Part shown: positions 5,801 to 54,677 of the stretch, one piece after another
How positions within the stretch are numbered: the first letter of the stretch is position 1
Layout: the number at the start of each line of letters is the position of its first letter
From: Giardia intestinalis
Lineage: Eukaryota
DNA length: 64,000 bases
Reading direction: 5' to 3' (one strand)
Assembly (NCBI GenBank): GCA_000002435.2
Contig: CM018789.1
Program-made: the position numbers and the translations under genes
The notes under the pieces: generated by a model
What the model was told of the DNA's origin: nothing
Databases searched by the model: none
Seen by the model: only the letters and a program-made list of their open reading frames with translations

Positions 5801-5892
5801 ATCTAAGCCTGAGCCGCAGCCGGAGAGCCCGTCACGCGAGACGAAGTAAAACTAAGGTCATACTTCACGGCAATTTACTTCATCCTGCAAAA

Positions 5893-8800: not shown

Positions 8801-9348
8801 CCGTTCGGATTAGGCTTGTGTGTCGAGAGCTTACACTTGACACATAGGGCCACGTCAGGACCCTTAGACTTAGACGGCGAGAGGCAATGCAGGCAACCGG
8901 CAACTCCTACAAAGTCCGCCACTCCTGTTGTGTCATCACACCGAACACACGAATCGACTGTTTGCGACGCTGCAGGGTTCCTAAAGAAACCAGACGTACA
9001 AGACTTGCAAACTCCTTTATCGCACTCGCTACATATAAGGTTCCCGGGGTAAAGATTACCGCACGCGTAGCAGCCTCCTTTGTATAGATACATGGAGTCT
9101 GTACACATCCCGCACCTCTTTTCGCTTACAATGGGTGTACCATCTGCACTCTTGCATGAAGAGTGTTGCTCGCTATCATACTTAATGCAGTGTCCGTTGA
9201 AGGGTATGTAGCCAGCATTCCTACACTCTGTGCACAGCTCGTGGCCGTTGATCTCCTCGCAACGGTCCTCTGCGCAATCGCTGACCTGGTTGGAGTGTGT
9301 ACACTTCGCTGCTTGAAAGGCGATCAGCAGACCAAGGACCGCAAGCAT
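5893..9348 (-). CDS. high-cysteine membrane protein (HCMP; VSP-like Cys-rich type I membrane protein without CRGKA tail)
   Basis: 1151 aa, ~12% Cys, many CXXC/CXC and GGCY motifs (KGGCYACG, QGGCYQVE, MGGCYQESK, SGGCYQVD), N-terminal signal peptide MLAVLGLLIAFQAA, Pro-rich stalk, single C-terminal TM (IAGVSVTAILLVTGLVSFLLWWFL) and short tail CKRT. Confidence 0.8.
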   Translation of the reverse strand: MLAVLGLLIAFQAAKCTHSNQVSDCAEDRCEEINGHELCTECRNAGYIPFNGHCIKYDSEQHSSCKSADGTPIVSEKRCGMCTDSMYLYKGGCYACGNLYPGNLICSECDKGVCKSCTSGFFRNPAASQTVDSCVRCDDTTGVADFVGVAGCLHCLSPSKSKGPDVALCVKCKLSTHKPNPNGDICYRCEIPDCPRCAADDSCAVCGRGYLKGTTKRVCVSQCGVGFYVAPTQLRQCKKCSGACQTCEGPNETDCTSCNESEGYFLAAENGTGRCVSCGDEQGHAGWKGVANCKACTRPSTPGVVECTECESNRLLIDGQCRKECDDPSEYCEADACDVVWRNELLCSRCKEGHAPLNGMCSELTPNNRRACIASKGRCEKCGPGFFFHQGGCYQVELEEKNFVCVEVGTKPEEIGLCKTCASGFRNDKGICVRCRDPYCKTCAQDTNTCESCIDGYYDPRFCKRCHNDCKTCVGESPEQCLTCHPKKYLSPIHKNIGVCVDAWQCGYGMYGHPFALKCLPCSEGCATCRGSEENDCTSCHLRTHFFVLTGYNRGQCIECGDTTNPKGINGCRECSAKGDSVRCIACKAGYVLVGGKCLSHCEDPNCAAGSCVVGIGEKLYCSLCKTDEHAPVDGICTNVASAHPSGCVTGVGFDSARSCLQCGAGYFLYMGGCYQESKEPGKSICTWAGVPGYVNGNNYGLGLCNACAAGYENQDGVCRPCTTVNCERCRMDDQGEVCTHCMVGYVLDQAGTCTTKTMGSCTVPDCAECTEGKKCRRCGPGFFLTSVGTCVDNCRSIPGHYALDATEKSPARCALCEISNCKECGAGNFCAVCSDGYFSDNGVCTPCDSTCATCVAKGPSSCVSCPSGYAVTSESGVGECKKPCTPSADGCKRCDASIDGASYCSVCSVQTAFPLNGKCVGPSARAGSACVSVVDGACTSCADGYFLLSGGCYQVDTYPGRTVCHAEERGVCTKGAHGKMVSESGILQECSIANCAECTADACVRCKLGYVSVDGQCQKCAQGCVTCIAPDNPQMCTLCDTGYYQSTTGSAFTCTACGADNNGMKGVNGCTCCMPPEGKVGSVLCYSFDALPSIIPTPKPGPDPVPDPVPAPAPSSARKTAMIAGVSVTAILLVTGLVSFLLWWFLCKRT

Positions 9349-9642
9349 TTAAATATAAACCAACGGAATATAATAAACTACATACTGCAAAAGTACAGAA
9401 CTAGGACTTTTGTCAGTAAAGTATACGCCACACCTCTGTCTGTAATTCTTGTGGGCAGTTGTTTGTAGAGAACAATTCTGAGATTTCCTCTTAAGATTGC
9501 AGGTAGGTCCAATCGGCGTTTCAGCTCACATCGCAGAAACCACCATATTATCTCCCTACGGTATGCTGCGTAGAATTGCTCGATTTATGACCATCAACCC
9601 TTAGATTTCTACTTACACTACATTTCGGCTTTCTCAGCGTTT

Positions 9643-10245
9643 ATGACGTTTTTATCGATTCTTGCAAAGGAAATAGGCAGTCCAGATTTGTGTGTCGAGC
9701 CTCGAGCATGCAGTTTGGATTTAACGTTGCAGAGGCCTTCGGACTCCGGCGGTCCTCCTTACAAATCAGTCACTAAGAAGTATGCCTCTCAGGCAGTAGA
9801 AGAAGATCAAAACCGTCTTGGACAGCGTGTAGGGCGATTTTCATGTAGCACAGGGTCTCCCAGCCTTGTAACTAGCCTGGCATTCATTCGCGATTCCCAC
9901 CACTTCTTGTTCTTAGCTGTCGATGAGGACCAGTGCCTCGGGATCCTGAAGGGAGGCATCAAGCATCTCTTTATGCTCGACAGCCAGAGCGAGACCCGCG
10001 AGATGGACGCGATGTGTTGCCTGGACTTCTACACCCATGAGACGGTGCAGCGCCGAGGGATCGGAACACGGCTCTTCCGCGCCATGGGGCTTCACACGCA
10101 TATCTCCGCTCAGGGCTGGGTTTTTGATCGACCCTCTCCGAAGTTGCTGGCCTTCCTCTCGAAGGTGTACGACATGCATGACTTCAAGGCCCAACCCAAC
10201 AACTTCCTCATGCTGGATGCATCCATTCGTCTTTGGGGGGGCTGA
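9643..10245 (+). CDS. ATAT1: alpha-tubulin N-acetyltransferase (MEC-17/alphaTAT1 family)
   Basis: Strong similarity to alphaTAT1 catalytic core: GIKHLFMLD...MCCLDFYTHETVQRRGIGTRLF...DRPSPKLLAFLSKVYDM...QPNNFLMLD matches human KKLFVLD...[22 protein letters not shown]...DRPSQKLLKFLNKHYNL...QVNNFVIF; divergent 295-bp promoter shared with HCMP. Confidence 0.75.
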   Translation: MTFLSILAKEIGSPDLCVEPRACSLDLTLQRPSDSGGPPYKSVTKKYASQAVEEDQNRLGQRVGRFSCSTGSPSLVTSLAFIRDSHHFLFLAVDEDQCLGILKGGIKHLFMLDSQSETREMDAMCCLDFYTHETVQRRGIGTRLFRAMGLHTHISAQGWVFDRPSPKLLAFLSKVYDMHDFKAQPNNFLMLDASIRLWGG

Positions 10246-10846
10246 GTTCAAGCAGTACAGGCGCAGCAAAAAGCACTATATTCCAGATGCATACCTACTT
10301 CCGGAGACCCGGGAAAGCGAGTATCTGGGCGAGGCGGAGCTTACCAAGAGGACGCTCATCAGGAAGTCAACAGCCGTCATTCCCCAAACTAAAACCACTC
10401 AATCAGAGGATGCGCCAGCTCGCGCCTTGACGGCAGATGAACTCCTGTCCAAGCGCTCTGTTGTTCTGCCCACAGCAAGCAGGACCCCTTCCCTTCCGAA
10501 TTAGCCCCAGTCCGTGGCAGTCGCATACATGAATAAACGTAAATGATAATGATTCACTTTACCCCTGGCTATGCCCAGTGCTGTGCTGCTGGAACCTACC
10601 TGTGGGCGTACTCAAGGACCTCACAGGTAAATTGTCGCTCAATTTTTGGCGATGTCCGGAGACGAGGGTTGGTCGTTGATGATATAACGAGAGAATCCTC
10701 TCCATTGATATATCCAGAGCCTGGTGCGCTCCTCTGCCGTTTCGCGGGCGTGTGCTCAGGCTGAGAGTGTGTGTCGGCCCTTTCGGGGTTCAGCTTACTT
10801 ACCCATCTGCGTCGTCCACCAGTGGCGCCTCTCCTTGGTCTGCCGC

Positions 10847-12950
10847 CTTGGTGGGTGAGGCTCTGGTCACTGTCCTTTTTTAGATGCCCCGTCTGCCAGG
10901 GGCTGCCACCGGGCTCTCCGCTGGCTGGGCCCTCGGTGTCCAGTCAGCTGTGGTCCTGGGCAGTGGTCCCACAGTCGCGGTCGCTTGGGTCCCATAGCGG
11001 GTCCGGCTGGTGGGTGAGGCGGGTGGTGGGTGAGGACTGGTGGGGGCTGAGGTGGGCTGTGTCGTATGTGCCTCTGGGTCTGATGGGCCAGTGTGGCGGT
11101 GGGTGATCCCCACTCTATTTGCCAAGGTGGCTGTGTCTGATCCCCAGCCTTCGTTGCACTCCTGAGACACAGACACCGACGATCGTGTTGTGTCCCCCTG
11201 ACTGAGTGCCTCCCTTGGCCTCTGCATGTCCCAGGCAGTATTGCCTCTCTGTCTGGCTGGTGCGTGAGGGTTGAGGCAGGCCATCGCAGCCCCTCCTGAT
11301 GCTCTGTGCGGGTCTGCTAGGCCCCTGGTATGCCCTGTCCAGTGCCTCGATGGGTGCAGTTCACCTCGGGCCAGCAGGGGCATGGATGATCCTGTGGATG
11401 GGATGAGTTCTCTCATGCCTCTAGTGTGATGGCCCAGAAGACTGGCACGGTGGGGCACTGGTGACTGGAGGGTCCCCGTGACCAACTGTGCTGCTCCTGG
11501 TGGGTCCTCGTTGTGGAGTGCTGTGTGTTGTTCATAGGCAGGCTGATCCTCCTTGGTCTCAGGATGCTCTACCATGCAGAGAGGAGCACACTGAGGGTCA
11601 CCCATACCTCACCTGCTGTGTCCTCTTGGGAGTTCCCGATGTGTCACAGGACCTTGCCACCTCTCGTGGCTCTGATGACCCCTCGAGGAGAGCCGGGGTG
11701 TCCTATGCCAGGGGAGGCGTGCACCCTCCTGCATGAGCTGGGACCCACTGCACTGCCCTCAAGGAGGTCTGCTATGAGAGGCAGTGGGATGATTGACGGC
11801 CCCAGAGTGCGGTGGAGGGTGCTCGTGGTCGTCTCTGTGATCGGGCATCACTCTGATGGTCAGCCCTGTGCCTGTATAGTGCTCAGAGGTCACCTATGCT
11901 CCATCGCCTGCTGGACAGCCGGGCCTCTTGTGGCATCCGAAGGCCTCCTCGCTCCTCTGGCTGCTGCCCCCTCGGGTCATCGGTGGAGGCCAGCGGAGTC
12001 TTCGGTGAGTCTGGTGCCTGCCTGGGTGTCATGGGGGGTTGGCAGCTGTCAAGGCTCTGCCACTGCTCACCTGCCTGGAGTGTGCCTCCCTTGGGCCTGC
12101 TGTGCTGTAGTGTTTGAGTCCTCTGGCTTCCTATCAGGCCCTGGTTGTGAGGGTGACTCCACCTGGCCCTCTGATGCCCCTGTGGATGAGCATGGCAATG
12201 TGTCTGGCTGGGGATCTCTAGTGCCCGTGTCTGTCACTGCCTCTCGGTGCTCGGGTGGTTGCCTGGTGCTCTCGTATGGGGCACAGTCAGCGTGTCCCGA
12301 GTAGACTCCAGTCCTCTCTGGGTCCACACAGTCTGTCCGTGTGTGGATGGTCCTCCTGCACTCATGTCCATCTGTGTGCACTGTCACCCAGTCTCGAGAG
12401 CAGACCAGTGCAGTCGCCAGGGCTGCTGTCAGAGGGAGTCGTCTGCCACTACCATCGCTCGAGCAGACTCTACAGCTCAGGCTGGTTGCTGTGCACCCTC
12501 ATCTCTCATGGCAGGGCTGCCTGACTCCCCTTGGTCACCCTCTCTGTCCCGGTGTGCACGGCTCCTGAGGGTTGTCTGGGTGGAGGCACTCACAGACCAC
12601 GAGTTCACAGAGGGATGAGTCACAAGGGGACAGCCTCCAGTCACCACAGCTGCAATCACCCCAGCCCACCGGACCCAGGGGCACATACGAACACCCCCCG
12701 GTCCCCTCCAGCCCCCGCATCCCCACCAGCCGGCCCGCTGGGACCCAAGCGACCGCGACTGTGGGACCACTGCCCAGGACCACAGCTGCCCGGACACCGA
12801 GGGCCCAGCCAGCGGAGAGCCCGGTGGCAGCCCCTGGCAGACGGGAGCATCTAAAAAAGACGGCGACCAGAGCCTCACCCACCAGGACGGCAGACCAAGG
12901 AGAGGCGCCACGGGTAGAGCGGAGAGTCTACAAGAAGGCCTGAATCCAAG
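10847..12950. repeat. GC-rich (~65% GC) palindrome-spacer element with ~250-bp inverted terminal segments; second, inverted copy at 54678..56727
   Basis: 10800-11050 is the reverse complement of 12700-12950 (e.g. gtctgccaggggctgccaccgggctctccgctggctgggccc vs gggcccagccagcggagagcccggtggcagcccctggcagac); interior ORFs occur on both strands in overlapping frames, typical of non-coding GC-rich DNA. Confidence 0.6.
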
Positions 12951-13174: not shown

Positions 13175-13181
13175 GTTTACT
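13175..13181 (-). promoter_or_regulatory. polyadenylation signal AGTAAAC downstream of VSP stop
   Basis: Matches Giardia AGTRAAY consensus ~25 nt 3' of TAG stop on minus strand. Confidence 0.5.
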
Positions 13182-13203
13182 ACCTAAGTACACAGCTAAG
13201 TAT

Positions 13204-16200
13204 CTACGCTTTGCCTCTACAGAGGAACCACCAGCAGAGGAAGCCGACAAGCCCTCCGACGACAACGATCACGGCGACGGAGATACCCGCGATGGCACCA
13301 GTGGAAAGGCCGCTCTTGTTCGTGCTTCCGCCGGCACTGTCACCGTTCATGAGGTAGCAGAGAACGGAGCCAGTACTAGACGATGGAGGAGCGCAGTTTA
13401 AGCAGCCAGCAACTCCCTTGACACTTCCACTGTTGCTGTCACACGAAGTGCATGGTCCAGCTGCTGATCCGACCATATAGTACCCAGCTGCGCATGACGT
13501 ACACTTATCAGAGCTATCTGCAGCTGAACATGTCTTGCAGGTCGAGTGACACGAAGGGCATGCTCCATCATTGGGCTGAAGACTATTGGCGCACGTTTCA
13601 CACTTACCAGCGCTACTGGCTAGCGTGCATATCTGTATGCCAGGTTGTCTGTCAGTCTTATAGCAGCCGTTGTCCTGACGGAAGTACCCACTGGCACACG
13701 TAGCGCAGCCTCCCTGATTGTCCTTTTTCGAGCATACGGGCGCGCGGGCATTGTCTGCCTTGCAAACTCCGTTGACGGGGACCTCCGTGGATGTGCTGCA
13801 CTTCGAGCAATACTTTGTCCCTCCGATGGTGGCTCCGCAGATCTCGCATCCGCTAGCTCCACTCTGGGGCTTGCACCCGTCCACGCAAGTACCACTTGAT
13901 GGACTGTTCTCATCTGTATACTGAAGCATCTTCCCAGCCGGACAGGCTGTGCACTGATTAGCATCAGCACCCTTGCACTCTGCGCACGCGTCGTTGCACT
14001 TCTTGCAGGTCTTTTTGCCACTATCGTCTCCGTAGTAGCCCTTGAGGGTCGTGCAGTCAGATACGCATTGACTGGTTGGGGTGAGGTAGTTGCCGTCATT
14101 ACATTCAGTGCAGACCTCGTTGTCGGTCTTCGGGTTATCGCAGGCCTTGCAGTTGGGAGTATTGCAGCCAGCAGGCGCGTCCGCACAGGTGTTCGCGTCC
14201 GCCCCGTTGCCGTACGGGCACTTATCGTAGCATCCGCCCATGTAGAGCCTCTGCGCGCCCGTGCAGGCCGCGCAGGTTCCTTCCTGGGCGTTCGCACCGG
14301 CCGTGCACAGGGGCGCGTCCCCCTTCGCCTTGCACTCTCCGTTCACCGGGACCTTGCCTCCCGTGCATTTGGAACAGAAGGTCTGGCCCTCAATCACCAC
14401 GTTGCAGCTGTCAGGGGCGCAGCTTGTCGCGTCCGGGCTCTGGGGGTTGCACGAGGCTGGGCCAGCAGGCGCGTCCGCACAGGTGTTCGTGTCCGCCCCG
14501 TTGCCGTACGGGCACTTATCGTAGCATCCGCCCATGTAGAGCCTCTGCGCGCCCGTGCAGGCCGTGCAGGTTCCTTCCTGGGCGTTCGCACCGGCCGTGC
14601 ACAGGGGCGCGTCCCCCTTCGCCTTGCACTCTCCGTTCACCGGGACCTTGCCTCCCGTGCATTTGGAACAGAAGGTCTGGCCCTCAATCACCACGTTGCA
14701 GCTGTCAGGGGCGCAGCTTGTCGCGTCCGGGCTCTGGGGGTTGCACGAGGCTGGGCCAGCAGGCGCGTCCGCACAGGTGTTCGCGTCCGCCCCGTTGCCG
14801 TACGGGCACTTATCGTAGCATCCGCCCATGTAGAGCCTCTGCGCGCCCGTGCAGGCCGTGCAGGTTCCTTCCTGGGCGTTCGCACCGGCCGTGCACAGGG
14901 GCGCGTCCCCCTTCGCCTTGCACTCTCCGTTCACCGGGACCTTGCCTCCCGTGCATTTGGAACAGAAGGTCTGGCCCTCAATCACCACGTTGCAGCTGTC
15001 AGGGGCGCAGCTTGTCGCGTCCGGGCTCTGGGGGTTGCACGAGGCTGGGCCAGCAGGCGCGTCCGCACAGGTGTTCGCGTCCGCCCCGTTGCCGTACGGG
15101 CACTTATCGTAGCATCCGCCCATGTAGAGCCTCTGCGCGCCCGTGCAGGCCGTGCAGGTTCCTTCCTGGGCGTTCGCACCGGCCGTGCACAGGGGCGCGT
15201 CCCCCTTCGCCTTGCACTCTCCGTTCACCGGGACCTTGCCTCCCGTGCATTTGGAACAGAAGGTCTGGCCCTCAATCACCACGTTGCAGCTGTCAGGGGC
15301 GCAGCTTGTCGCGTCCGGGCTCTGGGGGTTGCACGAGGCTGGGCCAGCAGGCGCGTCCGCACAGGTGTTCGCGTCCGCCCCGTTGCCGTACGGGCACTTA
15401 TCGTAGCATCCGCCCATGTAGAGCCTCTGCGCGCCCGTGCAGGCCGTGCAGGTTCCTTCCTGGGCGTTCGCACCGGCCGTGCACAGGGGCGCGTCCCCCT
15501 TCGCCTTGCACTCTCCGTTCACCGGGACCTTGCCTCCCGTGCATTTGGAACAGAAGGTCTGGCCCTCAATCACCACGTTGCAGCTGTCAGGGGCGCAGCT
15601 TGTCGCGTCCGGGCTCTGGGGGTTGCACGAGGCTGGGCCAGCAGGCGCGTCCGCACAGGTGTTCGCGTCCGCCCCGTTGCCGTACGGGCACTTATCGTAG
15701 CATCCGCCCATGTAGAGCCTCTGCGCGCCCGTGCAGGCCGTGCAGGTTCCTTCCTGGGCGTTCGCACCGGCCGTGCACAGGGGCGCGTCCCCCTTCGCCT
15801 TGCACTCTCCGTTCACCGGGACCTTGCCTCCCGTGCATTTGGAACAGAAGGTCTGGCCCTCAATCACCACGTTGCAGCTGTCAGGGGCGCAGCTTGTCGC
15901 GTCCGGGCTCTGGGGGTTGCACGAGGCTGGGCCAGCAGGCGCGTCCGCACAGGTGTTCGCGTCCGCCCCGTTGCCGTACGGGCACTTATCGTAGCATCCG
16001 CCCATGTAGAGCCTCTGCGCGCCCGTGCAGGCCGTGCAGGTTCCTTCCTGGGCGTTCGCACCGGCCGTGCACAGGGGCGCGTCCCCCTTCGCCTTGCACT
16101 CTCCGTTCACCGGGACCTTGCCTCCCGTGCATTTGGAACAGAAGGTCTGGCCCTCAATCACCACGTTGCAGCTGTCAGGGGCGCAGCTTGTCGCGTCCGG

Positions 16201-18069
16201 GCTCTGGGGGTTGCACGAGGCTGGGCCAGCAGGCGCGTCCGCACAGGTGTTCGCGTCCGCCCCGTTGCCGTACGGGCACTTATCGTAGCATCCGCCCATG
16301 TAGAGCCTCTGCGCGCCCGTGCAGGCCGTGCAGGTTCCTTCCTGGGCGTTCGCACCGGCCGTGCACAGGGGCGCGTCCCCCTTCGCCTTGCACTCTCCGT
16401 TCACCGGGACCTTGCCTCCCGTGCATTTGGAACAGAAGGTCTGGCCCTCAATCACCACGTTGCAGCTGTCAGGGGCGCAGCTTGTCGCGTCCGGGCTCTG
16501 GGGGTTGCACGAGGCTGGGCCAGCAGGCGCGTCCGCACAGGTGTTCGCGTCCGCCCCGTTGCCGTACGGGCACTTATCGTAGCATCCGCCCATGTAGAGC
16601 CTCTGCGCGCCCGTGCAGGCCGTGCAGGTTCCTTCCTGGGCGTTCGCACCGGCCGTGCACAGGGGCGCGTCCCCCTTCGCCTTGCACTCTCCGTTCACCG
16701 GGACCTTGCCTCCCGTGCATTTGGAACAGAAGGTCTGGCCCTCAATCACCACGTTGCAGCTGTCAGGGGCGCAGCTTGTCGCGTCCGGGCTCTGGGGGTT
16801 GCACGAGGCTGGGCCAGCAGGCGCGTCCGCACAGGTGTTCGCGTCCGCCCCGTTGCCGTACGGGCACTTATCGTAGCATCCGCCCATGTAGAGCCTCTGC
16901 GCGCCCGTGCAGGCCGTGCAGGTTCCTTCCTGGGCGTTCGCACCGGCCGTGCACAGGGGCGCGTCCCCCTTCGCCTTGCACTCTCCGTTCACCGGGACCT
17001 TGCCTCCCGTGCATTTGGAACAGAAGGTCTGGCCCTCAATCACCACGTTGCAGCTGTCAGGGGCGCAGCTTGTCGCGTCCGGGCTCTGGGGGTTGCACGA
17101 GGCTGGGCCAGCAGGCGCGTCCGCACAGGTGTTCGCGTCCGCCCCGTTGCCGTACGGGCACTTATCGTAGCATCCGCCCATGTAGAGCCTCTGCGCGCCC
17201 GTGCAGGCCGTGCAGGTTCCTTCCTGGGCGTTCGCACCGGCCGTGCACAGGGGCGCGTCCCCCTTCGCCTTGCACTCTCCGTTCACCGGGACCTTGCCTC
17301 CCGTGCATTTGGAACAGAAGGTCTGGCCCTCAATCACCACGTTGCAGCTGTCAGGGGCGCAGCTTGTCGCGTCCGGGCTCTGGGGGTTGCACGAGGCTGG
17401 GCCAGCAGGCGCGTCCGCACAGGTGTTCGCGTCCGCCCCGTTGCCGTACGGGCACTTATCGTAGCATCCGCCCATGTAGAGCCTCTGCGCGCCCGTGCAG
17501 GCCGTGCAGGTTCCTTCCTGGGCGTTCGCACCGGCCGTGCACAGGGGCGCGTCCCCCTTCGCCTTGCACTCTCCGTTCACCGGGACCTTGCCTCCCGTGC
17601 ATTTGGAACAGAAGGTCTGGCCCTCAATCACCACGTTGCAGCTGTCAGGGGCGCAGCTTGTCGCGTCCGGGCTCTGGGGGTTGCACGAGGCTGGGCCAGC
17701 AGGCGCGTCCGCACAGGTGTTCGCGTCCGCCCCGTTGCCGTACGGGCACTTATCGTAGCATCCGCCCATGTAGAGCCTCTGCGCGCCCGTGCAGGCCGTG
17801 CAGGTTCCTTCCTGGGCGTTCGCACCGGCCGTGCACAGGGGCGCGTCCCCCTTCGCCTTGCACTCTCCGTTCACCGGGACCTTGCCTCCCGTGCATTTGG
17901 AACAGAAGGTCTGGCCCTCAATCACCACGTTGCAGCTGTCAGGGGCGCAGCTTGTCGCGTCCGGGCTCTGGGGGTTGCACGAGGCTGGGCTTGCCTTTGC
18001 TCTACTTGCTGTTTGCGACGCCCAAGCTAATTGCAGGGCCAAGCTTACAAAGATGAGCTTATCGAACAT
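13204..18069 (-). CDS. vsp: variant-specific surface protein (VSP) with 13 tandem 98-aa repeats
   Basis: C-terminus ...GGLVGFLCWWFLCRGKA* (canonical VSP TM + CRGKA), GGCY and CXXC motifs, signal peptide MFDKLIFVSLALQLAWA; ORF track start 18159 trimmed to first Met that begins a signal peptide (plus cat at 18067-18069). Confidence 0.85.
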   Translation of the reverse strand: MFDKLIFVSLALQLAWASQTASRAKASPASCNPQSPDATSCAPDSCNVVIEGQTFCSKCTGGKVPVNGECKAKGDAPLCTAGANAQEGTCTACTGAQRLYMGGCYDKCPYGNGADANTCADAPAGPASCNPQSPDATSCAPDSCNVVIEGQTFCSKCTGGKVPVNGECKAKGDAPLCTAGANAQEGTCTACTGAQRLYMGGCYDKCPYGNGADANTCADAPAGPASCNPQSPDATSCAPDSCNVVIEGQTFCSKCTGGKVPVNGECKAKGDAPLCTAGANAQEGTCTACTGAQRLYMGGCYDKCPYGNGADANTCADAPAGPASCNPQSPDATSCAPDSCNVVIEGQTFCSKCTGGKVPVNGECKAKGDAPLCTAGANAQEGTCTACTGAQRLYMGGCYDKCPYGNGADANTCADAPAGPASCNPQSPDATSCAPDSCNVVIEGQTFCSKCTGGKVPVNGECKAKGDAPLCTAGANAQEGTCTACTGAQRLYMGGCYDKCPYGNGADANTCADAPAGPASCNPQSPDATSCAPDSCNVVIEGQTFCSKCTGGKVPVNGECKAKGDAPLCTAGANAQEGTCTACTGAQRLYMGGCYDKCPYGNGADANTCADAPAGPASCNPQSPDATSCAPDSCNVVIEGQTFCSKCTGGKVPVNGECKAKGDAPLCTAGANAQEGTCTACTGAQRLYMGGCYDKCPYGNGADANTCADAPAGPASCNPQSPDATSCAPDSCNVVIEGQTFCSKCTGGKVPVNGECKAKGDAPLCTAGANAQEGTCTACTGAQRLYMGGCYDKCPYGNGADANTCADAPAGPASCNPQSPDATSCAPDSCNVVIEGQTFCSKCTGGKVPVNGECKAKGDAPLCTAGANAQEGTCTACTGAQRLYMGGCYDKCPYGNGADANTCADAPAGPASCNPQSPDATSCAPDSCNVVIEGQTFCSKCTGGKVPVNGECKAKGDAPLCTAGANAQEGTCTACTGAQRLYMGGCYDKCPYGNGADANTCADAPAGPASCNPQSPDATSCAPDSCNVVIEGQTFCSKCTGGKVPVNGECKAKGDAPLCTAGANAQEGTCTACTGAQRLYMGGCYDKCPYGNGADANTCADAPAGPASCNPQSPDATSCAPDSCNVVIEGQTFCSKCTGGKVPVNGECKAKGDAPLCTAGANAQEGTCTACTGAQRLYMGGCYDKCPYGNGADTNTCADAPAGPASCNPQSPDATSCAPDSCNVVIEGQTFCSKCTGGKVPVNGECKAKGDAPLCTAGANAQEGTCAACTGAQRLYMGGCYDKCPYGNGADANTCADAPAGCNTPNCKACDNPKTDNEVCTECNDGNYLTPTSQCVSDCTTLKGYYGDDSGKKTCKKCNDACAECKGADANQCTACPAGKMLQYTDENSPSSGTCVDGCKPQSGASGCEICGATIGGTKYCSKCSTSTEVPVNGVCKADNARAPVCSKKDNQGGCATCASGYFRQDNGCYKTDRQPGIQICTLASSAGKCETCANSLQPNDGACPSCHSTCKTCSAADSSDKCTSCAAGYYMVGSAAGPCTSCDSNSGSVKGVAGCLNCAPPSSSTGSVLCYLMNGDSAGGSTNKSGLSTGAIAGISVAVIVVVGGLVGFLCWWFLCRGKA
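14166..17990. repeat. tandem array, 294-bp unit x 13.0, within VSP coding region
   Basis: Marker string gcctctgcgcgcccgtgcaggccg recurs every 294 bp from 14249 to 17777; antisense small ORFs recur 13 times at 294-bp spacing; units identical except 2-3 substitutions in the terminal units. Confidence 0.9.
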
Positions 18070-18333
18070 TGGGCCAAAGGTAGCCTGGTGGCGACACGGG
18101 GCTATGTAAGTAATAGCCGCGGACGCAATCGCCTGTCCATGCACCACATTAACGCACAACCCTCCTTTTCACATGTCCGACTTGGCGAAGGTACCAACCC
18201 AGGCCTTCCAGATTTGTGGTCTAACTTAACATAGGCGATATAGGTAGGGACGATCGTAAGTCGCCAAGAGAACAAATACCCTCAGTAAGCATTTACGTCG
18301 AGTATCATAAAACCCCGCCGCCCTCAACTCAGT

Positions 18334-19077
18334 CTACGAGTGCGAGGCAAAAGCGCCACCCTGGGAACCCTTCAAGCGATCGTAAAGCAGAATTGCCAGA
18401 AGCGACTTGCCATCTGTGAGCTTCTCCAGCGACCCGGCTAGCTTAGTAAGGCGAACGATGATGCGTTCGTGTGGTCCGACTCCGGTGAGTCTTCCCGCCA
18501 GATTCTCAAGGAAGTCTTTGGAAACCGACTTCTCCGTGTAGTATAGAGATAGAAGCTCGTCGCTGCCCCCCGGAGAAGTGTAGTATGAACCTAAGCTACA
18601 AAGGTCGGACCGCTTCAGTGAGATGCCGGTCTCCTCTGCCATCTCTTGGACAGCCACGCCGACCACATCTCCATTCTCATCGAGCATTCCCGCGGGGATC
18701 TCCAAGAATGACGCCTTTCCAACGGGAACCCGTGCCTGTTCGGTGAGGACAATGTACTTTTCTGCAGTTTTCTCGTCAATGAGCACAGGAAGGACGCCAA
18801 CAGACCCTCCCCGCATGAAAACGATCCCGGGCACCCGCTGGCCGTGAATCTTGGAGTACGCCTCCGCAGAAAACTTCAAAAAGCCAATCCTAGCTCCGAA
18901 GTAATCCACGCTCTGGACAGTCAAACCCCGGACATCAAGGTTTTCATCAATCTCTTCGCACCATTCGCGGAATGGCTTATACACCTTTAACATGGAAGAA
19001 AACATCACCGGTTCTACATCTGCCGGAAGCGTGACAGAGACATTTTTTCCTCGAATCACCACTGTAACCTCGCTCAT
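18334..19077 (-). CDS. Nudix hydrolase family protein (ADP-sugar pyrophosphatase-like)
   Basis: Nudix box-like GMLDENGDVVGVAVQEMAEETGI (G..EX7..E.MAEETGI; R->Q and one E->G deviation from GX5EX7REUXEEXGU); 247 aa. Confidence 0.5.
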   Translation of the reverse strand: MSEVTVVIRGKNVSVTLPADVEPVMFSSMLKVYKPFREWCEEIDENLDVRGLTVQSVDYFGARIGFLKFSAEAYSKIHGQRVPGIVFMRGGSVGVLPVLIDEKTAEKYIVLTEQARVPVGKASFLEIPAGMLDENGDVVGVAVQEMAEETGISLKRSDLCSLGSYYTSPGGSDELLSLYYTEKSVSKDFLENLAGRLTGVGPHERIIVRLTKLAGSLEKLTDGKSLLAILLYDRLKGSQGGAFASHS

Positions 19078-19181: not shown

Positions 19182-19844
19182 ATGTTCAAGTCCATTTCTC
19201 TCGAGGACCTTCCGAGGCTTAACAGCCACCTTGAGACCCGTGCCTACATGGCGGGCTTTGTACCGTCTCTCAACGATCACATCATGTACACCCACGTGTG
19301 CAGCATGGATGTGGCGCCTGAGATGCACCACGTTCTTCGCTGGCTGTCCCACATGAAGTCTTTCAGCCAAGCTGAACGTGCTGCTCTCCCTGCCAAGGGG
19401 AAGATATGCGATTTCGCCCCGGCAGAGGAGAAGCCGGAGGCTAAGAAATCTTCCAACGCAGATCTCTTCGGAAGCGACAGCGAGTCAGACGACGAGGAGC
19501 TGAAGGCAGAGAAGGAGAAGCTGCAGGCCAGTCTTGAGAACAAGAAGAAGCCGAAGAACGCCAAGGCAGAGATGTCCATGGTTGTCCTCGAGATCAAGCC
19601 CAACGATGACGAGTCTGACATGGAGTACGTTCAGAAGAATCTGACTAAGATGGTGACCATGGACGGCCTCAACTGGGGGGAGTCTGAGTTTCAGCCTCTT
19701 TGCTACGGCCTCAAGGCCCTTGTCATCGCCTGCACGGTAGTCGATGACATCTGTTCTGTCGATGATCTCTGTGAGAAAGTGGTCGAAGTCTTTGAGGAGC
19801 AGGTGCAGAGCTGTGATGTCCGATCATTTAACAAGCTCGGGTAG
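19182..19844 (+). CDS. EF1B: translation elongation factor 1-beta
   Basis: C-terminal guanine-exchange domain MVVLEIKPNDDESDMEYVQKNLTKMVTMDGLNWGESEFQPLCYGLKALVIACTVVDDICSVDDLCEKVVEVFEEQVQSCDVRSFNKLG aligns with EF-1beta (ILLDVKPWDDETDM...DGLVWG...VGYGIKKLQI...VQSMDVAAFNKI); acidic Ser/Asp/Glu linker; start moved from TTG to first ATG (19182). Confidence 0.8.
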   Translation: MFKSISLEDLPRLNSHLETRAYMAGFVPSLNDHIMYTHVCSMDVAPEMHHVLRWLSHMKSFSQAERAALPAKGKICDFAPAEEKPEAKKSSNADLFGSDSESDDEELKAEKEKLQASLENKKKPKNAKAEMSMVVLEIKPNDDESDMEYVQKNLTKMVTMDGLNWGESEFQPLCYGLKALVIACTVVDDICSVDDLCEKVVEVFEEQVQSCDVRSFNKLG

Positions 19845-21218
19845 TGAATTTTCACTTGACTGACTTTCTAGGCCACTGAGGCTGTCGGTGCCCCTGAAGC
19901 GGGCGCTAGGCGGCCTTAGCTCGTCGCACGTGTCTTCTAGTATCTTGACAGCAATATCCAATTCATGGAGCTTGATCTCTTGGTCAGACAAGCGATTTTT
20001 GATAGTGCCGTTTTCGCGAGCTAGCTCATTGATGCGTGTTTCAATCGGAATAATCTCACTAATTACACGCTTGATATCCATGCCTAACTGGCTTAGTTGC
20101 GTTCTAAGCTCCTTATTTTCAGCTCGCAATTCCTGACACAGCTCCACAAGTTGTAGTAGCTGCCCCGTCATACTATGGTGTCGTTCGGACAGTCTGTCTA
20201 TGCGTTTATACACTTCTGTGAGGTTGTTAGAGTTTGTCTCTGTGGTTCTTGTTTCAATTATGACATTATCTTGTTCGTCTTGATGCGACGCAGTGGATGA
20301 GATAGGTAAGGATGGACTTTCTGCTGTGTTGGTAGCACCTAGGCTAGAAGTAGATGAATGTGAAGAGGTGGATTGCTGGCACAAAAGAATGCTGCCTTCA
20401 AACTCTTTTAGAAGCTGAAGTAACTCGGCGGCAGTGCTACGGTCATCTTGATCTGAGATAAGGAGATGGGAGATAATGGCACGAATGTAATCATTTCTCA
20501 GCCTGGAGAATACTCGCTTCCAGTGCATTGCTGCATCTGTTTGTCTCCACTGCAGAGGCAAATTAGGACGCTCTCCGGTAGCAAGCTCGTAGAGAACTGC
20601 CCCAAGACTCCACATGTCTGCTTTGGTGTCATATTTCCTCTTCTGCCTGATCTCTGGTGCCGTATAAAACGGTGTACCAGCAGTTGTATTTGCATATTGA
20701 TTTCGTTCTAAAACCCGGCAAAGTCCAAAGTCTGCTAAAACATATGCTGTTCGATCCTTACTGACTAATATGTTTTCCGGTTTGATGTCTCTGTGAATGA
20801 TTGGCGGGAGTAATCGTCCATCACTATCACGCTTTGTCGGGCTGTGAAGGTAAGCCAATGCTTCAGAGAGCTGCTGCGCTATGTCAAGAATCTGAGTGTC
20901 GCTAAGGCACTTACCAGAAGATGTGTGAGAGGTTATAATGTCTCTGAGAGTTTCTGGATAGTAGGTCATACGGATGTAGAGGTAGCGCTCACCACGTACA
21001 ATCTGCTTATATTCGATTATATTTCTGTGCTTCATCTTTGGTAGAATGGAGATTTCGCTTTGAAGTATTGCCAGCACATCGTCAGTGAGCTTAACTAAGT
21101 CAATCACTTTTATCACGTCTTTGTTGTTGTTCTTTAACGAGTATACTGCCCCAAACGCTCCGTGGCCGATAAGTCTATGAAGATTGGCCCGCATTTTCGC
21201 ATCAACCTTCGTGGCCAT
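19824..21218 (-). CDS. NEK-family serine/threonine protein kinase with C-terminal coiled coil
   Basis: GHGAFGAV glycine loop, VIKVID lysine, HRDIKPENILV, DFGLCR, GTPFYTAPE; C-terminal heptad-rich region; 3' end overlaps EF1B by 21 nt tail-to-tail. Confidence 0.75.
   Translation of the reverse strand: MATKVDAKMRANLHRLIGHGAFGAVYSLKNNNKDVIKVIDLVKLTDDVLAILQSEISILPKMKHRNIIEYKQIVRGERYLYIRMTYYPETLRDIITSHTSSGKCLSDTQILDIAQQLSEALAYLHSPTKRDSDGRLLPPIIHRDIKPENILVSKDRTAYVLADFGLCRVLERNQYANTTAGTPFYTAPEIRQKRKYDTKADMWSLGAVLYELATGERPNLPLQWRQTDAAMHWKRVFSRLRNDYIRAIISHLLISDQDDRSTAAELLQLLKEFEGSILLCQQSTSSHSSTSSLGATNTAESPSLPISSTASHQDEQDNVIIETRTTETNSNNLTEVYKRIDRLSERHHSMTGQLLQLVELCQELRAENKELRTQLSQLGMDIKRVISEIIPIETRINELARENGTIKNRLSDQEIKLHELDIAVKILEDTCDELRPPSARFRGTDSLSGLESQSSENSLPELVK
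19843..19849 (+). promoter_or_regulatory. polyadenylation signal AGTGAAT overlapping EF1B stop codon
   Basis: AGTRAAY consensus overlapping TAG. Confidence 0.5.
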
Positions 21219-21346: not shown

Positions 21347-23116
21347 TTAATTTAAGAAGAATTCCATAATAGTGCAAGGGATTGGTACCTTGTAGGTGAG
21401 TAGAGTATTAGGATGAATGACTCCTATCCAACCTAGTGTATGGCCATCGACTACAATTGATGCCCGCCTCCCTGGAAGACAAGTTGGGTGGTCTTCTCCA
21501 ATTAGCTTAAAACTCTTCGCGAGCTTTCTCATGAGATGGTCGAGAAACCCGTGCACAAACTCAAATCCATCAGTAGTGCCCCCATAAATGCATGAGAACT
21601 TCTTCACGGCATGTACTCCAACGTCATCTCTAGCATCGGCATTAGGGACAAGAACCTCAGAGACCTCAAAAAGTCTAAGTGGCAAGCTGATATGTTGCTG
21701 AGCTGAGACAGCCCGCAAGAGGCCTGGAGCTAGGCAAGAACGCGTGTGACTAAACATGGCCGTCTTAGTATTCGATAATTCCACTGGAAGATCCCCGAAG
21801 ATAGAATCCTCTGCAGGACAAAGTGAGAATAGGACCAACTCGATATATCCACACGCAACAGCCTCAGATCTCACTATTTCGCCAAGTCGGAATTCTTGAA
21901 GGATAGACCCCTGCGTCATGGTATTGGGAAGCTTAGCATACTTTTCGGCAATGGCATTATATCCATAGGAGATACAAAAGTTTTCAACTAGGTCCGCTTC
22001 AGCAATAATGTCTTGACGGAAAAATGGAACGTGGCACCTCAATACAGTGTCTGCGAGGTCTGACTTTGCCTGCACCACCTCGGCTCGTATGGACATTCTT
22101 TTGAGGTAGGAACAGACCATGGAAATACTGAGGGTGTTCAGAGGTATACCCGATATCTCACTCAATTTAGCAAGCCTTAAGTCCAATTGGTAAGAAGAGA
22201 TGAGAGGATAGGTGACCTTTGCATGTGGCTTGTTGATGGGGAGCTGAGTGTGCTGGCTAGTAACACTATCATATACTATCGTCACTGTCTCTACCTGATT
22301 CTTCTTCCGTGTATGCATACGGATAGAATTAATAACGTTGTTTAAAGTAGCACAGGCCTTGTTAAGATCTGTTGCTGTGCACTCGATAAAAACGTTAGTT
22401 GTGCTCAAGGAGACCTTGGAATACTCGCTATTTATGATCGGAGGAAGAGACAAGACCTCTCCGCGACCATCTCGAATGACGGGCCACAGAGGCTCATTCT
22501 TGATGATGTGGAGGTACGATGATAGCTGACGGTCTCCTTCGAGAACTTTAAATAGTGACCTTCCATCCATTACTTCAGATTGAGATAGCGCCAGGAAAAC
22601 GATATCCTCAGGGGGCTGTGCAGAATACGTTATGGAGGATGTGTCAATCTTATCCAAATCGTGGGTGCCAATGGCCACAAGCGTACGCTTTCTGCAAAGG
22701 TTCTGATGCAACTTGTCTTGGTAGTCAATGAAGGAGTTAAAGCTTGTCTGAGTAAAGTTAACACCACGTACAATGGCCGAAACGATATATGGGCGTACTG
22801 GGCCCACTGCCTTACCGTCCACCCTGATTTGGACAGAGCTGTCTCTGGCATACAGTCCCAACGGTTCACCAAGGCCCAAGAACGGTTGCAGTGTAACGGC
22901 CATTCCTTCAACTGAGAGGATGTCCGGTCTATTTGCGGTCACATCCACTCTATAATGCTTCACTGGTCCTTGCTCCTCCAGAAATCGCTCTGACTGCATA
23001 ACGACCTCGTCTAGCTCCATGCCAAGGTCAGCAAATATGGCGTCAAATTCTTCATCGCTCCTTGTGATCCCAAGAAGACGCTCGAGCTCATGTTTGACAA
23101 TTGTGGCAGTAGGCAT
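21347..23116 (-). CDS. FARSB: phenylalanyl-tRNA synthetase beta subunit (eukaryotic/archaeal type)
   Basis: N-terminus MPTATIVKHELERLLGITRSDEEFDAIFADLGMELDE matches FARSB [37 protein letters not shown]; further conserved blocks (DKLHQNLCRKRTLVAIGTHDLD, HIIKNEPLWPVIRDGRGEVLSLPPIIN). Confidence 0.85.
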   Translation of the reverse strand: MPTATIVKHELERLLGITRSDEEFDAIFADLGMELDEVVMQSERFLEEQGPVKHYRVDVTANRPDILSVEGMAVTLQPFLGLGEPLGLYARDSSVQIRVDGKAVGPVRPYIVSAIVRGVNFTQTSFNSFIDYQDKLHQNLCRKRTLVAIGTHDLDKIDTSSITYSAQPPEDIVFLALSQSEVMDGRSLFKVLEGDRQLSSYLHIIKNEPLWPVIRDGRGEVLSLPPIINSEYSKVSLSTTNVFIECTATDLNKACATLNNVINSIRMHTRKKNQVETVTIVYDSVTSQHTQLPINKPHAKVTYPLISSYQLDLRLAKLSEISGIPLNTLSISMVCSYLKRMSIRAEVVQAKSDLADTVLRCHVPFFRQDIIAEADLVENFCISYGYNAIAEKYAKLPNTMTQGSILQEFRLGEIVRSEAVACGYIELVLFSLCPAEDSIFGDLPVELSNTKTAMFSHTRSCLAPGLLRAVSAQQHISLPLRLFEVSEVLVPNADARDDVGVHAVKKFSCIYGGTTDGFEFVHGFLDHLMRKLAKSFKLIGEDHPTCLPGRRASIVVDGHTLGWIGVIHPNTLLTYKVPIPCTIMEFFLN

Positions 23117-49600: not shown

Positions 49601-49723
49601 GTGTTCTAGCCACAGGCGCCTGGAGTTATAGATCTAAGCCTGAGCCGCAGCCGGAGAGCCCGTCACGCGAGACGAAGTAAAACTAAGGTCATACTTCACG
49701 GCAATTTACTTCATCCTGCAAAA

Positions 49724-53179: not shown

Positions 53180-53473
53180 TTAAATATAAACCAACGGAAT
53201 ATAATAAACTACATACTGCAAAAGTACAGAACTAGGACTTTTGTCAGTAAAGTATACGCCACACCTCTGTCTGTAATTCTTGTGGGCAGTTGTTTGTAGA
53301 GAACAATTCTGAGATTTCCTCTTAAGATTGCAGGTAGGTCCAATCGGCGTTTCAGCTCACATCGCAGAAACCACCATATTATCTCCCTACGGTATGCTGC
53401 GTAGAATTGCTCGATTTATGACCATCAACCCTTAGATTTCTACTTACACTACATTTCGGCTTTCTCAGCGTTT

Positions 53474-54076: not shown

Positions 54077-54677
54077 GTTCAAGCAGTACAGGCGCAGCAA
54101 AAAGCACTATATTCCAGATGCATACCTACTTCCGGAGACCCGGGAAAGCGAGTATCTGGGCGAGGCGGAGCTTACCAAGAGGACGCTCATCAGGAAGTCA
54201 ACAGCCGTCATTCCCCAAACTAAAACCACTCAATCAGAGGATGCGCCAGCTCGCGCCTTGACGGCAGATGAACTCCTGTCCAAGCGCTCTGTTGTTCTGC
54301 CCACAGCAAGCAGGACCCCTTCCCTTCCGAATTAGCCCCAGTCCGTGGCAGTCGCATACATGAATAAACGTAAATGATAATGATTCACTTTACCCCTGGC
54401 TATGCCCAGTGCTGTGCTGCTGGAACCTACCTGTGGGCGTACTCAAGGACCTCACAGGTAAATTGTCGCTCAATTTTTGGCGATGTCCGGAGACGAGGGT
54501 TGGTCGTTGATGATATAACGAGAGAATCCTCTCCATTGATATATCCAGAGCCTGGTGCGCTCCTCTGCCGTTTCGCGGGCGTGTGCTCAGGCTGAGAGTG
54601 TGTGTCGGCCCTTTCGGGGTTCAGCTTACTTACCCATCTGCGTCGTCCACCAGTGGCGCCTCTCCTTGGTCTGCCGT

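What the first reader, a model, noticed from the sequence alone, without database searches (positions are those of the whole stretch)
14166..17990. VSP whose ectodomain is 13 perfect 294-bp (98-aa) tandem repeats
About 3.8 kb of a 4.9-kb CRGKA-tailed VSP gene is thirteen 294-bp units that are nucleotide-identical apart from 2-3 substitutions confined to the terminal units. Each unit carries about 12 Cys, including the CXXC motifs CSKC and CTAC and one GGCY. That level of homogeneity implies very recent expansion or ongoing concerted evolution by unequal exchange, and suggests copy number may vary between isolates. The array also creates giant spurious antisense ORFs of 1320 and 1210 aa.
Basis: seen in the sequence. 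Interest (0 to 1): 0.6.

Follow-up and report, generated by a model that had tools for sequence, protein, structure and literature searches.

The report
Known Giardia surface-antigen gene with repeats
This is a real but already catalogued Giardia surface-coat (VSP) gene, VSP187/GL50803_89315 of the reference strain WB, most of which is thirteen near-identical copies of a 98-residue cysteine-rich module; it is a typical member of a repeat-containing VSP class described since the 1990s.

Summary
The array is thirteen 294-bp units at 14169..17990. Units 1-11 are identical; units 12 and 13 each carry one nonsynonymous substitution. It lies inside a 4866-bp minus-strand gene (13204..18069) with a VSP leader, CAATGTT initiator, 12.1% Cys, transmembrane segment and CRGKA tail.

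The 1621-aa product is identical to KAE8301682.1 / XP_001704067.2, annotated 'VSP', from Giardia intestinalis WB clone C6 (2020 PacBio reference). Adam et al. 2010 listed the gene as VSP187, GL50803_89315, 'TR294', 739 aa, 73.8 kDa, 88 Cys. That equals this protein with four units, so only the copy number is new. The 2007 model was a 443-aa 5'-truncated fragment.

Two details may go beyond the catalogue. The 98-aa unit is the whole ectodomain module of ~200-aa 'mini-VSPs'. A non-syntenic assemblage E (P15) VSP has a 294-bp repeat with the same start, junction and end. Units are ≥99% identical within each genome but 80% between genomes, which indicates concerted evolution of an old array.

The antisense ORFs are by-products of a stop-free, GC-rich unit whose length is a multiple of three. 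Verdict: real, correctly interpreted, already known, low interest.

The parts
13204..18069 (-). Complete VSP gene (VSP187 / GL50803_89315): ATG at 18069, stop codon at 13204..13206, 1621 aa, calculated mass 160.6 kDa
   Evidence: Translation. Coordinates and length. Exact match to KAE8301682.1 / XP_001704067.2, annotated 'VSP', Giardia intestinalis WB C6. Pfam VSP at 484.6 bits. Mass.
18065..18071 (-). Initiator-like CAATGTT spanning the start codon
   Evidence: The sequence 'cccaatgttcgat' is visible. Adam 2010 lists the INR of VSP187 as CAATGTT.
17991..18069 (-). Leader and pre-repeat segment (79 nt; protein MFDKLIFVSLALQLAWASQTASRAKAS); the hydrophobic signal peptide is about residues 1-17
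   Evidence: The leader is nearly identical to that of annotated mini-VSPs. Adam 2010 reports that arrays in repeat VSPs begin 66-99 bp after the ATG. SignalP was not run.
14169..17990 (-). Thirteen in-frame 294-bp (98-aa) tandem units; 12 Cys, 2 CXXC and 1 GGCY per unit; 67.7% GC
14463..14756 (-). Unit 12, with one substitution (G>A, Ala>Thr)
   Evidence: Also present in the older Sanger-derived model P0028.
14169..14462 (-). Unit 13, with one substitution (A>G, Thr>Ala)
   Evidence: Also present in P0028.
13300..14168 (-). Non-repetitive Cys-rich C-terminal ectodomain cassette (begins GCNTPNCKAC...), shared with many other VSPs
   Evidence: The best non-self hit is 78% identical over 100% of the query, and 216 VSP hits have E<=1e-20.
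13207..13299 (-). Transmembrane segment GAIAGISVAVIVVVGGLVGFLCWWFL followed by the cytoplasmic CRGKA tail (13207..13221)
   Evidence: Translation. This segment is invariant in the alignment with other VSPs.
13175..13189 (-). ACTTAGGTAGTAAAC, 15-29 nt after the stop codon: the extended VSP polyadenylation motif (AGTAAA core)
   Evidence: The sequence is shown. Its identification as the VSP poly(A) consensus ACTYAGRTAGTRAAY rests on my own knowledge of the Giardia literature and was not tested here.
14068..18030 (+). Antisense ORF of 1320 aa, judged spurious
   Evidence: The unit contains no stop codon in this frame. Pfam hits are weak and all below cut-off.
14424..18056 (+). Antisense ORF of 1210 aa, judged spurious
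   Evidence: The unit contains no stop codon in this frame. No Pfam hit.

Best explanation

The protein is a type I membrane protein with four parts:
- a cleavable leader;
- thirteen copies of a 98-residue, 12-cysteine module;
- a roughly 290-residue canonical VSP cysteine-rich cassette;
- a transmembrane helix followed by the CRGKA cytoplasmic tail.

When this gene is the one expressed, the protein coats the trophozoite. The repeated module then presents a multivalent and probably immunodominant epitope. That last step is inferred from vspA6.

The module is the same unit that, in single copy, forms the whole ectodomain of ~200-aa 'mini-VSPs'. The array is an old in-frame tandem duplication of that module. 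It is kept homogeneous by unequal exchange, gene conversion or replication slippage, which also changes copy number. Edge units escape homogenisation and so carry the only substitutions.

Shown here: the anatomy, the identity with the annotated gene, the homology of the module, and the shared junction with a P15 gene. Shown in the literature: expression at the protein level. Inferred: the mechanism of homogenisation, immunodominance, and variation in copy number.
For: - **Array and gene anatomy:**
- **Identity:** exact match to the annotated WB VSP on a 1,485,438-bp contig.
- **Catalogue match:** Adam 2010 lists VSP187 as GL50803_89315, TR294, chromosome 1, CAATGTT, 739 aa, 73.8 kDa, 88 Cys, 22 CXXC. 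My four-unit reconstruction gives 739 aa, 73.81 kDa and 88 Cys. From the counts, 14 non-repeat CXXC plus 8 from four units gives 22.
- **Pfam:** the VSP family hit is far above its cut-off.
- **Module homology:** the unit aligns end to end with the ectodomain of 197-200-aa VSPs from WB and P15 at 56-70% identity. All 12 Cys are invariant and the leader is the same.
- **P15 gene (L001 8001..9380):** it has a 294-bp repeat, 2.0 copies, 99% identical. It shares the same start (nt 76-79), the same internal junction and the same end before CN(T/I)PNC. Unit DNA identity is 80% between WB and P15, against 99% or more within each genome.
- **Precedents:** Adam 2010 describes 30 WB VSPs with repeats of 105-516 bp and from 2 to more than 20 copies. 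It also reports allelic copy-number variation in vspA6 and vspC5, and immunodominance of the vspA6 repeat.
- **Read support:** PacBio reads with N50 12.7 kb at 200x span the 3.8-kb array (PMC7000408).
Against: - No read-level data were available, so the figure of 13 units and the perfect interior identity rest on a polished consensus. Quiver and short-read polishing can erase minor differences between interior units.
- Copy-number variation at this particular locus has not been demonstrated. The three published versions may differ only through assembly collapse.
- The P15 gene is not syntenic and its C-terminal cassette is only 52% identical. It is a related mosaic gene, not a strict orthologue. 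The shared junction could in principle reflect transfer of the array by recombination between VSP genes rather than vertical descent.
- Immunodominance of this repeat has not been tested.
Confidence: 0.93

Rival explanations
1. The copy number, and possibly the perfect homogeneity, is an assembly or polishing artefact. On this view the true array in WB has a different number of units, or its units differ from one another.
For: The same locus appeared as a 443-aa 5'-truncated model in 2007 and as a four-unit, 739-aa gene in 2010. [quoted passage not shown] Consensus polishing with multi-mapping reads tends to homogenise identical repeats (my inference).
Against: The present sequence comes from 200x PacBio data with read N50 12.7 kb, and 10% of reads exceed 20 kb. 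Many single reads therefore span the 3.8-kb array plus unique flanks. Earlier, smaller numbers are the expected direction of error for Sanger assemblies. The two edge substitutions are reproduced in independent Sanger data.
Confidence: 0.12
2. The array is a very recent, one-off amplification in the WB lineage. There has been no long-term concerted evolution, and the P15 repeat arose independently.
For: Eleven units are identical and there are only two substitutions in 3.8 kb. No 90%-identical orthologue was retrieved from other isolates. The P15 locus has different neighbours.
Against: The P15 array has the same 294-bp period, starts at the same nucleotide (within 3 nt), and has the same internal junction and the same 3' end. 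Independent duplications would not be expected to share both breakpoints. The variant units lie at the array edge, which is the classic signature of ongoing unequal exchange.
Confidence: 0.2
3. The repeated module is a functional scorpion-toxin-like (BmKX) domain. On this view the protein is a polyvalent toxin or effector rather than, or as well as, a coat antigen.
For: Pfam PF09132 'BmKX' matches all 13 units with 583.8 bits in total against a cut-off of 24. BmKX hits in three WB VSPs were noted by Adam 2010 and discussed as possible virulence domains by Emery 2016.
Against: Direct comparison with the solved toxin is not significant: 1rji scores E=0.37 and 14.8 bits, essentially on cysteine spacing. 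The toxin is absent from the hits when two full units are searched. The predicted unit structure (pLDDT 73) returns no BmKX hit, and its non-significant best matches are furin-like repeats of R-spondin and HER2. The 30-residue segment is embedded in a 98-residue disulfide-rich module, not a free peptide.
Confidence: 0.04
4. One of the long plus-strand ORFs (1320 or 1210 aa) is the real gene, or a second real gene.
For: Both ORFs exist.
Against: They exist only inside the array, because the 294-bp unit has no stop codon in two plus-strand frames. They have no Pfam hit above cut-off. The minus-strand frame carries every VSP hallmark and is the annotated product, which has been detected by mass spectrometry.
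Confidence: 0.01

Closest known systems
VSP187 = GL50803_89315 ('TR294') of Giardia lamblia WB, as catalogued by Adam et al. 2010 (PMC2996952); now KAE8301682.1 / XP_001704067.2
   Same: It is the same gene. The current record is identical over all 1621 aa. The 2010 entry matches on chromosome 1, the CAATGTT initiator, the 294-nt repeat and clade II. Its length, mass, Cys count and CXXC count equal a four-unit version of this protein exactly.
   Different: Only the copy number differs: listed as 3 (effectively 4) units in 2010, a 5'-truncated 443-aa model in 2007, and 13 units here.
vspA6 (CRP170, VSP67) of WB
   Same: The architecture is the same: a short leader, then a long perfect in-frame tandem array beginning within about 100 bp of the ATG, then a non-repetitive Cys-rich region, then the conserved transmembrane/CRGKA end.
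   Different: vspA6 has a 195-bp (65-aa) unit in about 23-25 copies, with an unrelated unit sequence. Its allelic copy-number variation, allele-specific expression and repeat immunodominance have been shown experimentally. None of these has been shown for VSP187.
Mini-VSPs of about 197-200 aa (for example WB P0044; P15 P0042, P0045 and P0047)
   Same: They share the leader. Their single 98-aa module is 56-70% identical to the unit, with all 12 Cys invariant. The same G|C(N/D)xPNC continuation follows the module. They carry the same Pfam BmKX and VSP hits.
   Different: They have one module only, followed by a short (about 35-aa) stalk rather than a roughly 290-aa cassette.
P15 (assemblage E) partial VSP P0132 (ACVC01000339.1; L001 8001..9380)
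   Same: It has the same leader and a 294-bp module repeat with the same start, junction and end, followed by a long VSP cassette.
   Different: Only 2.0 copies are assembled, in a draft assembly where the gene runs off the contig end. Its units are 80% (DNA) and 74% (aa) identical to the WB units. Its C-terminal cassette is only about 52% identical. Its neighbours are different.
WB VSP XP_001705986.1 (530 aa; by length and repeat probably VSP108, TR105)
   Same: It is the closest paralogue of the non-repetitive C-terminal cassette, at 78% identity over 321 aa.
   Different: Its N-terminal array is five copies of an unrelated 35-aa unit, and its leader is different. This illustrates the modular combination of different arrays with the same cassette.

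Membership tests
Giardia variant-specific surface protein (VSP) | Conserved C-terminus: hydrophobic membrane anchor followed by the invariant CRGKA pentapeptide | tested here: met
   The protein ends ...GAIAGISVAVIVVVGGLVGFLCWWFLCRGKA*. This segment is identical to that of other VSPs in the alignment.
Giardia variant-specific surface protein (VSP) | Cysteine-rich ectodomain (about 11-13% Cys) with many CXXC motifs, usually with GGCY | tested here: met
   196 Cys in 1621 aa (12.1%), 40 CXXC and 13 GGCY.
Giardia variant-specific surface protein (VSP) | N-terminal signal peptide | tested here: met
   The leader is MFDKLIFVSLALQLAWA/SQ, nearly identical to the leaders of annotated VSPs. No signal-peptide predictor was available, so this rests on homology and hydrophobicity.
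Giardia variant-specific surface protein (VSP) | Match to the Pfam VSP family (PF03302) above its gathering score | tested here: met
   484.6 bits against a cut-off of 31.4; the best stretch covers residues 1485-1621.
Giardia variant-specific surface protein (VSP) | Initiator element at the ATG and the extended poly(A) motif just after the stop codon | tested here: met
   CAATGTT at 18071..18065 (also Adam 2010 table). ACTTAGGTAGTAAAC at 13189..13175. The consensus for the poly(A) motif is recalled from the literature.
Giardia variant-specific surface protein (VSP) | One-at-a-time surface expression with switching | not testable with these tools
   Only indirect evidence is available. [quoted passage not shown]
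Tandem-repeat-containing VSPs (vspA6 / vspC5 / CRP136 class; 30 genes in WB) | In-frame tandem repeat of 105-516 bp, from 2 to more than 20 copies, beginning 66-99 bp after the ATG | tested here: met
   294 bp x 13, starting at gene nt 76-80. Class definition from Adam 2010.
Tandem-repeat-containing VSPs (vspA6 / vspC5 / CRP136 class; 30 genes in WB) | Copy number varies between alleles, clones or isolates | tested here: inconclusive
   Three published versions of the WB locus have about 1.25, 4 and 13 units, but assembly collapse explains this equally well. No read data or second long-read isolate was accessible. The structural-variant tables of PMC7048089 held no entry for 89315.
BmKX scorpion short-chain toxin family (Pfam PF09132) | Match to the Pfam model above its gathering score | tested here: met
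   13 stretches, 583.8 bits in total, each covering model positions 1-30 of 30.
BmKX scorpion short-chain toxin family (Pfam PF09132) | Significant sequence similarity to the toxin itself (PDB 1rji / 1wt8) | tested here: not met
   E=0.37 and 14.8 bits with a 36-aa piece. With two full units as query, the toxin does not appear at E<=10.
BmKX scorpion short-chain toxin family (Pfam PF09132) | Toxin-like fold | tested here: not met
   Foldseek against the PDB with the unit model (pLDDT 73) returns no BmKX entry. The best matches, all non-significant (E>=0.4), are furin-like repeats of R-spondin and HER2. The model's confidence is only moderate.
BmKX scorpion short-chain toxin family (Pfam PF09132) | Potassium-channel blocking activity as a free ~31-residue peptide | not testable with these tools
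   Here the segment is internal to a 98-aa module of a membrane protein.

The most novel reading that the evidence does not exclude
The 98-residue 'mini-VSP' module may be an autonomous folding and antigenic unit. Its tandem array, with one fixed junction, may predate the split of assemblages A and E and may have been kept homogeneous ever since. That would imply selection for multivalent display (a decoy or immunodominant epitope, or an avidity-based host interaction) rather than neutral slippage. Copy number might then differ among the four genome copies of a single trophozoite, giving a second, size-based layer of antigen variation at this locus.
Probability: 0.3. Interest if true: 0.35.

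Novelty: already known. Interest (0 to 1): 0.15.

Why it matters
Repeat-containing VSPs matter for three reasons. Their repeats can dominate the antibody response. Their copy number can change quickly. They are systematically mis-assembled, which distorts VSP catalogues, proteomic databases and transcript quantification.

This locus is a clear worked example. The same gene in the same strain was reported as 443 aa, 739 aa and 1621 aa in successive releases. Anyone using the older models, for example as a mass-spectrometry search database or for expected band sizes, would be wrong by up to 87 kDa (73.8 versus 160.6 kDa).

Beyond that caution the finding adds nothing conceptually new. The gene, its repeat, the class it belongs to and the behaviour of that class are all published.

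Tried and rejected
- **First protein search.** The whole 1621-aa protein returned only distant hits (best 51% identity over 21% of the query). This wrongly suggested an uncatalogued gene. The exact-sequence look-up showed the protein is in NCBI. The word-index search had simply missed its own cluster. It also missed P0132, so 'no orthologue found' statements are weak.
- **Literature on VSP187 / 89315.** Only three relevant papers turned up: a proteomics paper, a list of miR2 target sites, and the 2010 catalogue.
- **Nanopore structural-variant tables.** I searched the supplements of PMC7048089 for 89315 and found nothing.
- **Original vspA6 papers.** PMC186261 and PMC308127 are not held. Their content is cited only through Adam 2010.
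- **Genomic locus of the WB mini-VSP P0044.** Not on record.
- **Toxin reading of the Pfam BmKX hit.** Considered and rejected.
- **Synteny of the P15 repeat gene with the WB locus.** Considered and rejected: the neighbours are IFT140 and an ankyrin protein, against NUDIX, NEK and PheRS-beta in WB.
- **Real antisense genes.** Considered and rejected.
Full report

Yes. Tandem Repeats Finder gives a single array at 14167..17990 with period 294, 13.0 copies, 99% matches, no indels and score 7634. The independent repeat finder gives 13 copies at a constant 294-nt spacing.

I cut the minus-strand gene into units. Units 1-11 are nucleotide-identical. Unit 12 (14463..14756) has one G>A change (Ala>Thr). 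Unit 13 (14169..14462) has one A>G change (Thr>Ala). The following 294 nt differ at 200 positions, so the array has sharp ends.

Each unit encodes PASCNPQSPDATSCAPDSCNVVIEGQTFCSKCTGGKVPVNGECKAKGDAPLCTAGANAQEGTCTACTGAQRLYMGGCYDKCPYGNGADANTCADAPAG.

The mechanical ORF 13204..18159 starts at a TTG. The real start is the ATG at 18069, within CAATGTT. This gives a 4866-bp gene encoding 1621 aa, with 196 Cys (12.1%), 40 CXXC motifs and a CRGKA end.

The antisense ORFs of 1320 and 1210 aa exist.

**2. What is it?**

An exact-sequence look-up shows that the window comes from Giardia intestinalis WB clone C6. The flanking phenylalanyl-tRNA synthetase beta chain, a NEK kinase and GL50803_0015545 are identical to WB proteins. 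The 1621-aa product is identical to KAE8301682.1 / XP_001704067.2, annotated 'VSP', on a 1,485,438-bp contig.

That contig belongs to the 2020 PacBio reference: 200x coverage, read N50 12.7 kb, and 10% of reads longer than 20 kb (PMC7000408). The previous version of the same accession, XP_001704067.1, is a 443-aa model. It starts at an internal Met in unit 12 and contains unit 13 plus the C-terminal part. It carries both edge substitutions, which are therefore independently confirmed.

The curated WB repertoire of Adam et al. 2010 (PMC2996952) lists VSP187 as follows: clade II, gene GL50803_89315, feature 'TR294', 294 nt per repeat, repeat number 3, chromosome 1, complete, INR CAATGTT, 739 aa, 73.8 kDa, 88 Cys, 22 CXXC.

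Rebuilding the present protein with four units gives 739 aa, 73.81 kDa and 88 Cys. The CXXC count also matches: 14 outside the repeats plus 8 from four units gives 22. The gene and its 294-bp repeat were therefore already catalogued. Only the copy number has grown with long reads.

The same paper states that 30 WB VSPs contain tandem repeats of 105-516 bp in from 2 to more than 20 copies. It says arrays begin 66-99 bp after the ATG. [quoted passage not shown] It also reports that vspA6 and vspC5 show allelic variation in copy number.

**3. Family evidence**

Pfam VSP (PF03302) scores 484.6 bits against a cut-off of 31.4. The leader, the transmembrane segment and the CRGKA tail align with other VSPs. 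ACTTAGGTAGTAAAC lies 15-29 nt after the stop codon. I recognise this as the VSP extended poly(A) motif from my own knowledge of the literature.

[quoted passage not shown] The gene is therefore expressed in at least some populations.

**4. Anatomy beyond the catalogue**

*(a) The unit is a whole domain.*
- Searching two units retrieved seven VSPs of 167-200 aa from WB, P15 and unnamed ENA assemblies.
- In the alignment the 98-aa unit covers their entire ectodomain module at 56-70% identity, with all 12 Cys invariant. It is preceded by the same leader (MFDKLIFVSLALQLAWASQTAS.AK) and followed by the same G|C(N/D)xPNC continuation.
- VSP187 is therefore a mini-VSP N-terminus whose module has been multiplied, joined to a long cassette.

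*(b) The cassette is common.*
- The 321-aa non-repetitive part has 216 VSP relatives at E<=1e-20.
- The closest is a WB VSP at 78% identity (XP_001705986.1, 530 aa). It carries five copies of an unrelated 35-aa repeat and a different leader.
- VSPs thus combine different arrays with similar cassettes.

*(c) A P15 (assemblage E) partial VSP shares the array structure.*
- This gene is P0132, at L001 8001..9380. It has the same leader and a 294-bp repeat, 2.0 copies, 99% identical.
- Its array starts at gene nt 79, against 76 in WB.
- It has the same internal junction: ...GCGCCT(T/G)CTGG|(G)CC(A/C)A(A/G)CC(C/T)CGTGCAACCCCCAG.
- It ends immediately before TGCAATA(T/C)TCCCAACTGC.
- Units are 80% identical in DNA and 73-74% in protein between the two genomes, but 99% or more within each.
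- One shared junction with within-genome homogeneity is the signature of concerted evolution of an old array.
- The P15 locus has different neighbours and a cassette only about 52% identical. It is a related mosaic, not a positional orthologue, so transfer of the array by recombination cannot be excluded.

**5. Structure and the 'toxin' label**

Pfam BmKX (a 30-residue scorpion-toxin model) matches all 13 units. The same kind of hit was reported for three WB VSPs in 2010 and discussed as a possible virulence domain in 2016.

Direct tests do not support homology with the toxin:
- phmmer of two units against all PDB sequences at E<=10 does not find it.
- A 36-aa piece finds 1rji only at E=0.37, mainly on cysteine spacing.
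- An AlphaFold model of the unit has mean pLDDT 73, pTM 0.66 and a series of beta-hairpins, with the last 15 residues at low confidence. It has no significant PDB match.
- The best non-significant matches of that model are all furin-like Cys-rich repeats of R-spondin and HER2/EGFR. This agrees with a weak Furin-like_2 Pfam hit.

I read the module as a furin/EGF-receptor-like disulfide ladder, with low confidence.

**6. Antisense ORFs**

The unit has no stop codon in two of the three plus-strand frames, nor in the coding frame. Because 294 is a multiple of 3 and the array is 67.7% GC, these frames stay open across the whole array. Neither ORF has a Pfam hit above cut-off. They are by-products of the repeat.

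**7. Mechanism**

*Shown:* the anatomy, the identity with the annotated gene, the module homology, and the shared junction with P15.

*From the literature:* one VSP at a time coats the trophozoite. Repeat copy number varies between alleles in vspA6 and vspC5. The vspA6 repeat is immunodominant.

*Inferred for this gene:* unequal sister-chromatid or allelic exchange, gene conversion or slippage keeps the units identical and changes their number. The edge units pair out of register less often and so retain the only substitutions. The array presents a 13-valent epitope.

*Caveats:* the figure of 13 and the perfect interior identity rest on a polished consensus. The differences between published versions (about 1.25, 4 and 13 units) are most simply explained by assembly collapse.

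**8. Novelty and verdict**

However, this is VSP187/GL50803_89315, annotated in the reference genome and listed with its 294-bp repeat in 2010, within a class known since the early 1990s.

The small additions made here are:
- a copy number of 13 rather than 4;
- the equivalence of the unit to the mini-VSP ectodomain;
- the shared repeat junction with a P15 gene;
- the weakness of the BmKX label.

Novelty: already known. Interest: low (0.15).

Noticed in passing
window 2986..10885 and 46817..54716; 49728..54711 and 56694..61677; ORFs 5893..9348 (-), 49724..53179 (-), 58226..61759 (+): There is a 7.9-kb direct segmental duplication (99.75% identical, 43.8 kb apart) and a 5-kb perfect inverted pair separated by about 2 kb. 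Together they give three copies of a Cys-rich (13.2% Cys) protein with a Pfam VSP hit. Two copies are identical at 1151 aa and end ...WWFLCKRT, so they are of the high-cysteine-membrane-protein type rather than CRGKA VSPs. The third is 1177 aa with a different C-terminal end. VSP187 and a block of housekeeping genes lie between the copies.
   Followed up: partly
window 11042..12806 and 54759..56528: A GC-rich (about 59%), apparently gene-poor stretch lies just 3' of VSP187. It is itself part of the inverted duplication (arms 93-100% complementary). It contains only overlapping ORFs with no Pfam hit. This agrees with the remark in PMC7000408 that regions around VSPs are gene-poor.
   Followed up: no
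window 14169..17990 (each unit, residues PVNGECKAKGDAPLCTAGANAQEGTCTACT): The Pfam 'BmKX' scorpion-toxin model hits every unit very strongly, at about 45 bits per 30-residue match. The solved toxin itself is only marginally similar (E=0.37). The model therefore seems to score Giardia VSP sequences better than its namesake, so the domain label on VSPs in databases is probably misleading.
   Followed up: partly
L001 8001..9380 (P15 contig ACVC01000339.1, gene runs off the contig end): An assemblage E VSP has the same leader and a 294-bp module repeat with the same junction, assembled as exactly 2.0 copies in a draft assembly. Its true copy number is probably underestimated, as it was for WB before long reads.
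   Followed up: partly
window 18334..19077 (-), 19824..21218 (-), 21347..23116 (-): The immediate 5' neighbours of the VSP are ordinary conserved genes: a NUDIX-domain protein, a NEK kinase and the phenylalanyl-tRNA synthetase beta chain. The VSP is therefore embedded at the edge of a housekeeping block and is not in a VSP array.
   Followed up: partly
tool behaviour (versus 16, 53): The word-indexed protein search did not return the query's own cluster (P0028) for the full-length query. It also did not return the 74%-identical P15 repeat protein (P0132) for the two-unit query. Both appeared when the non-repetitive C-terminal part was used. Highly repetitive queries seem to defeat candidate selection, so negative results from such queries should not be trusted.
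   Followed up: yes
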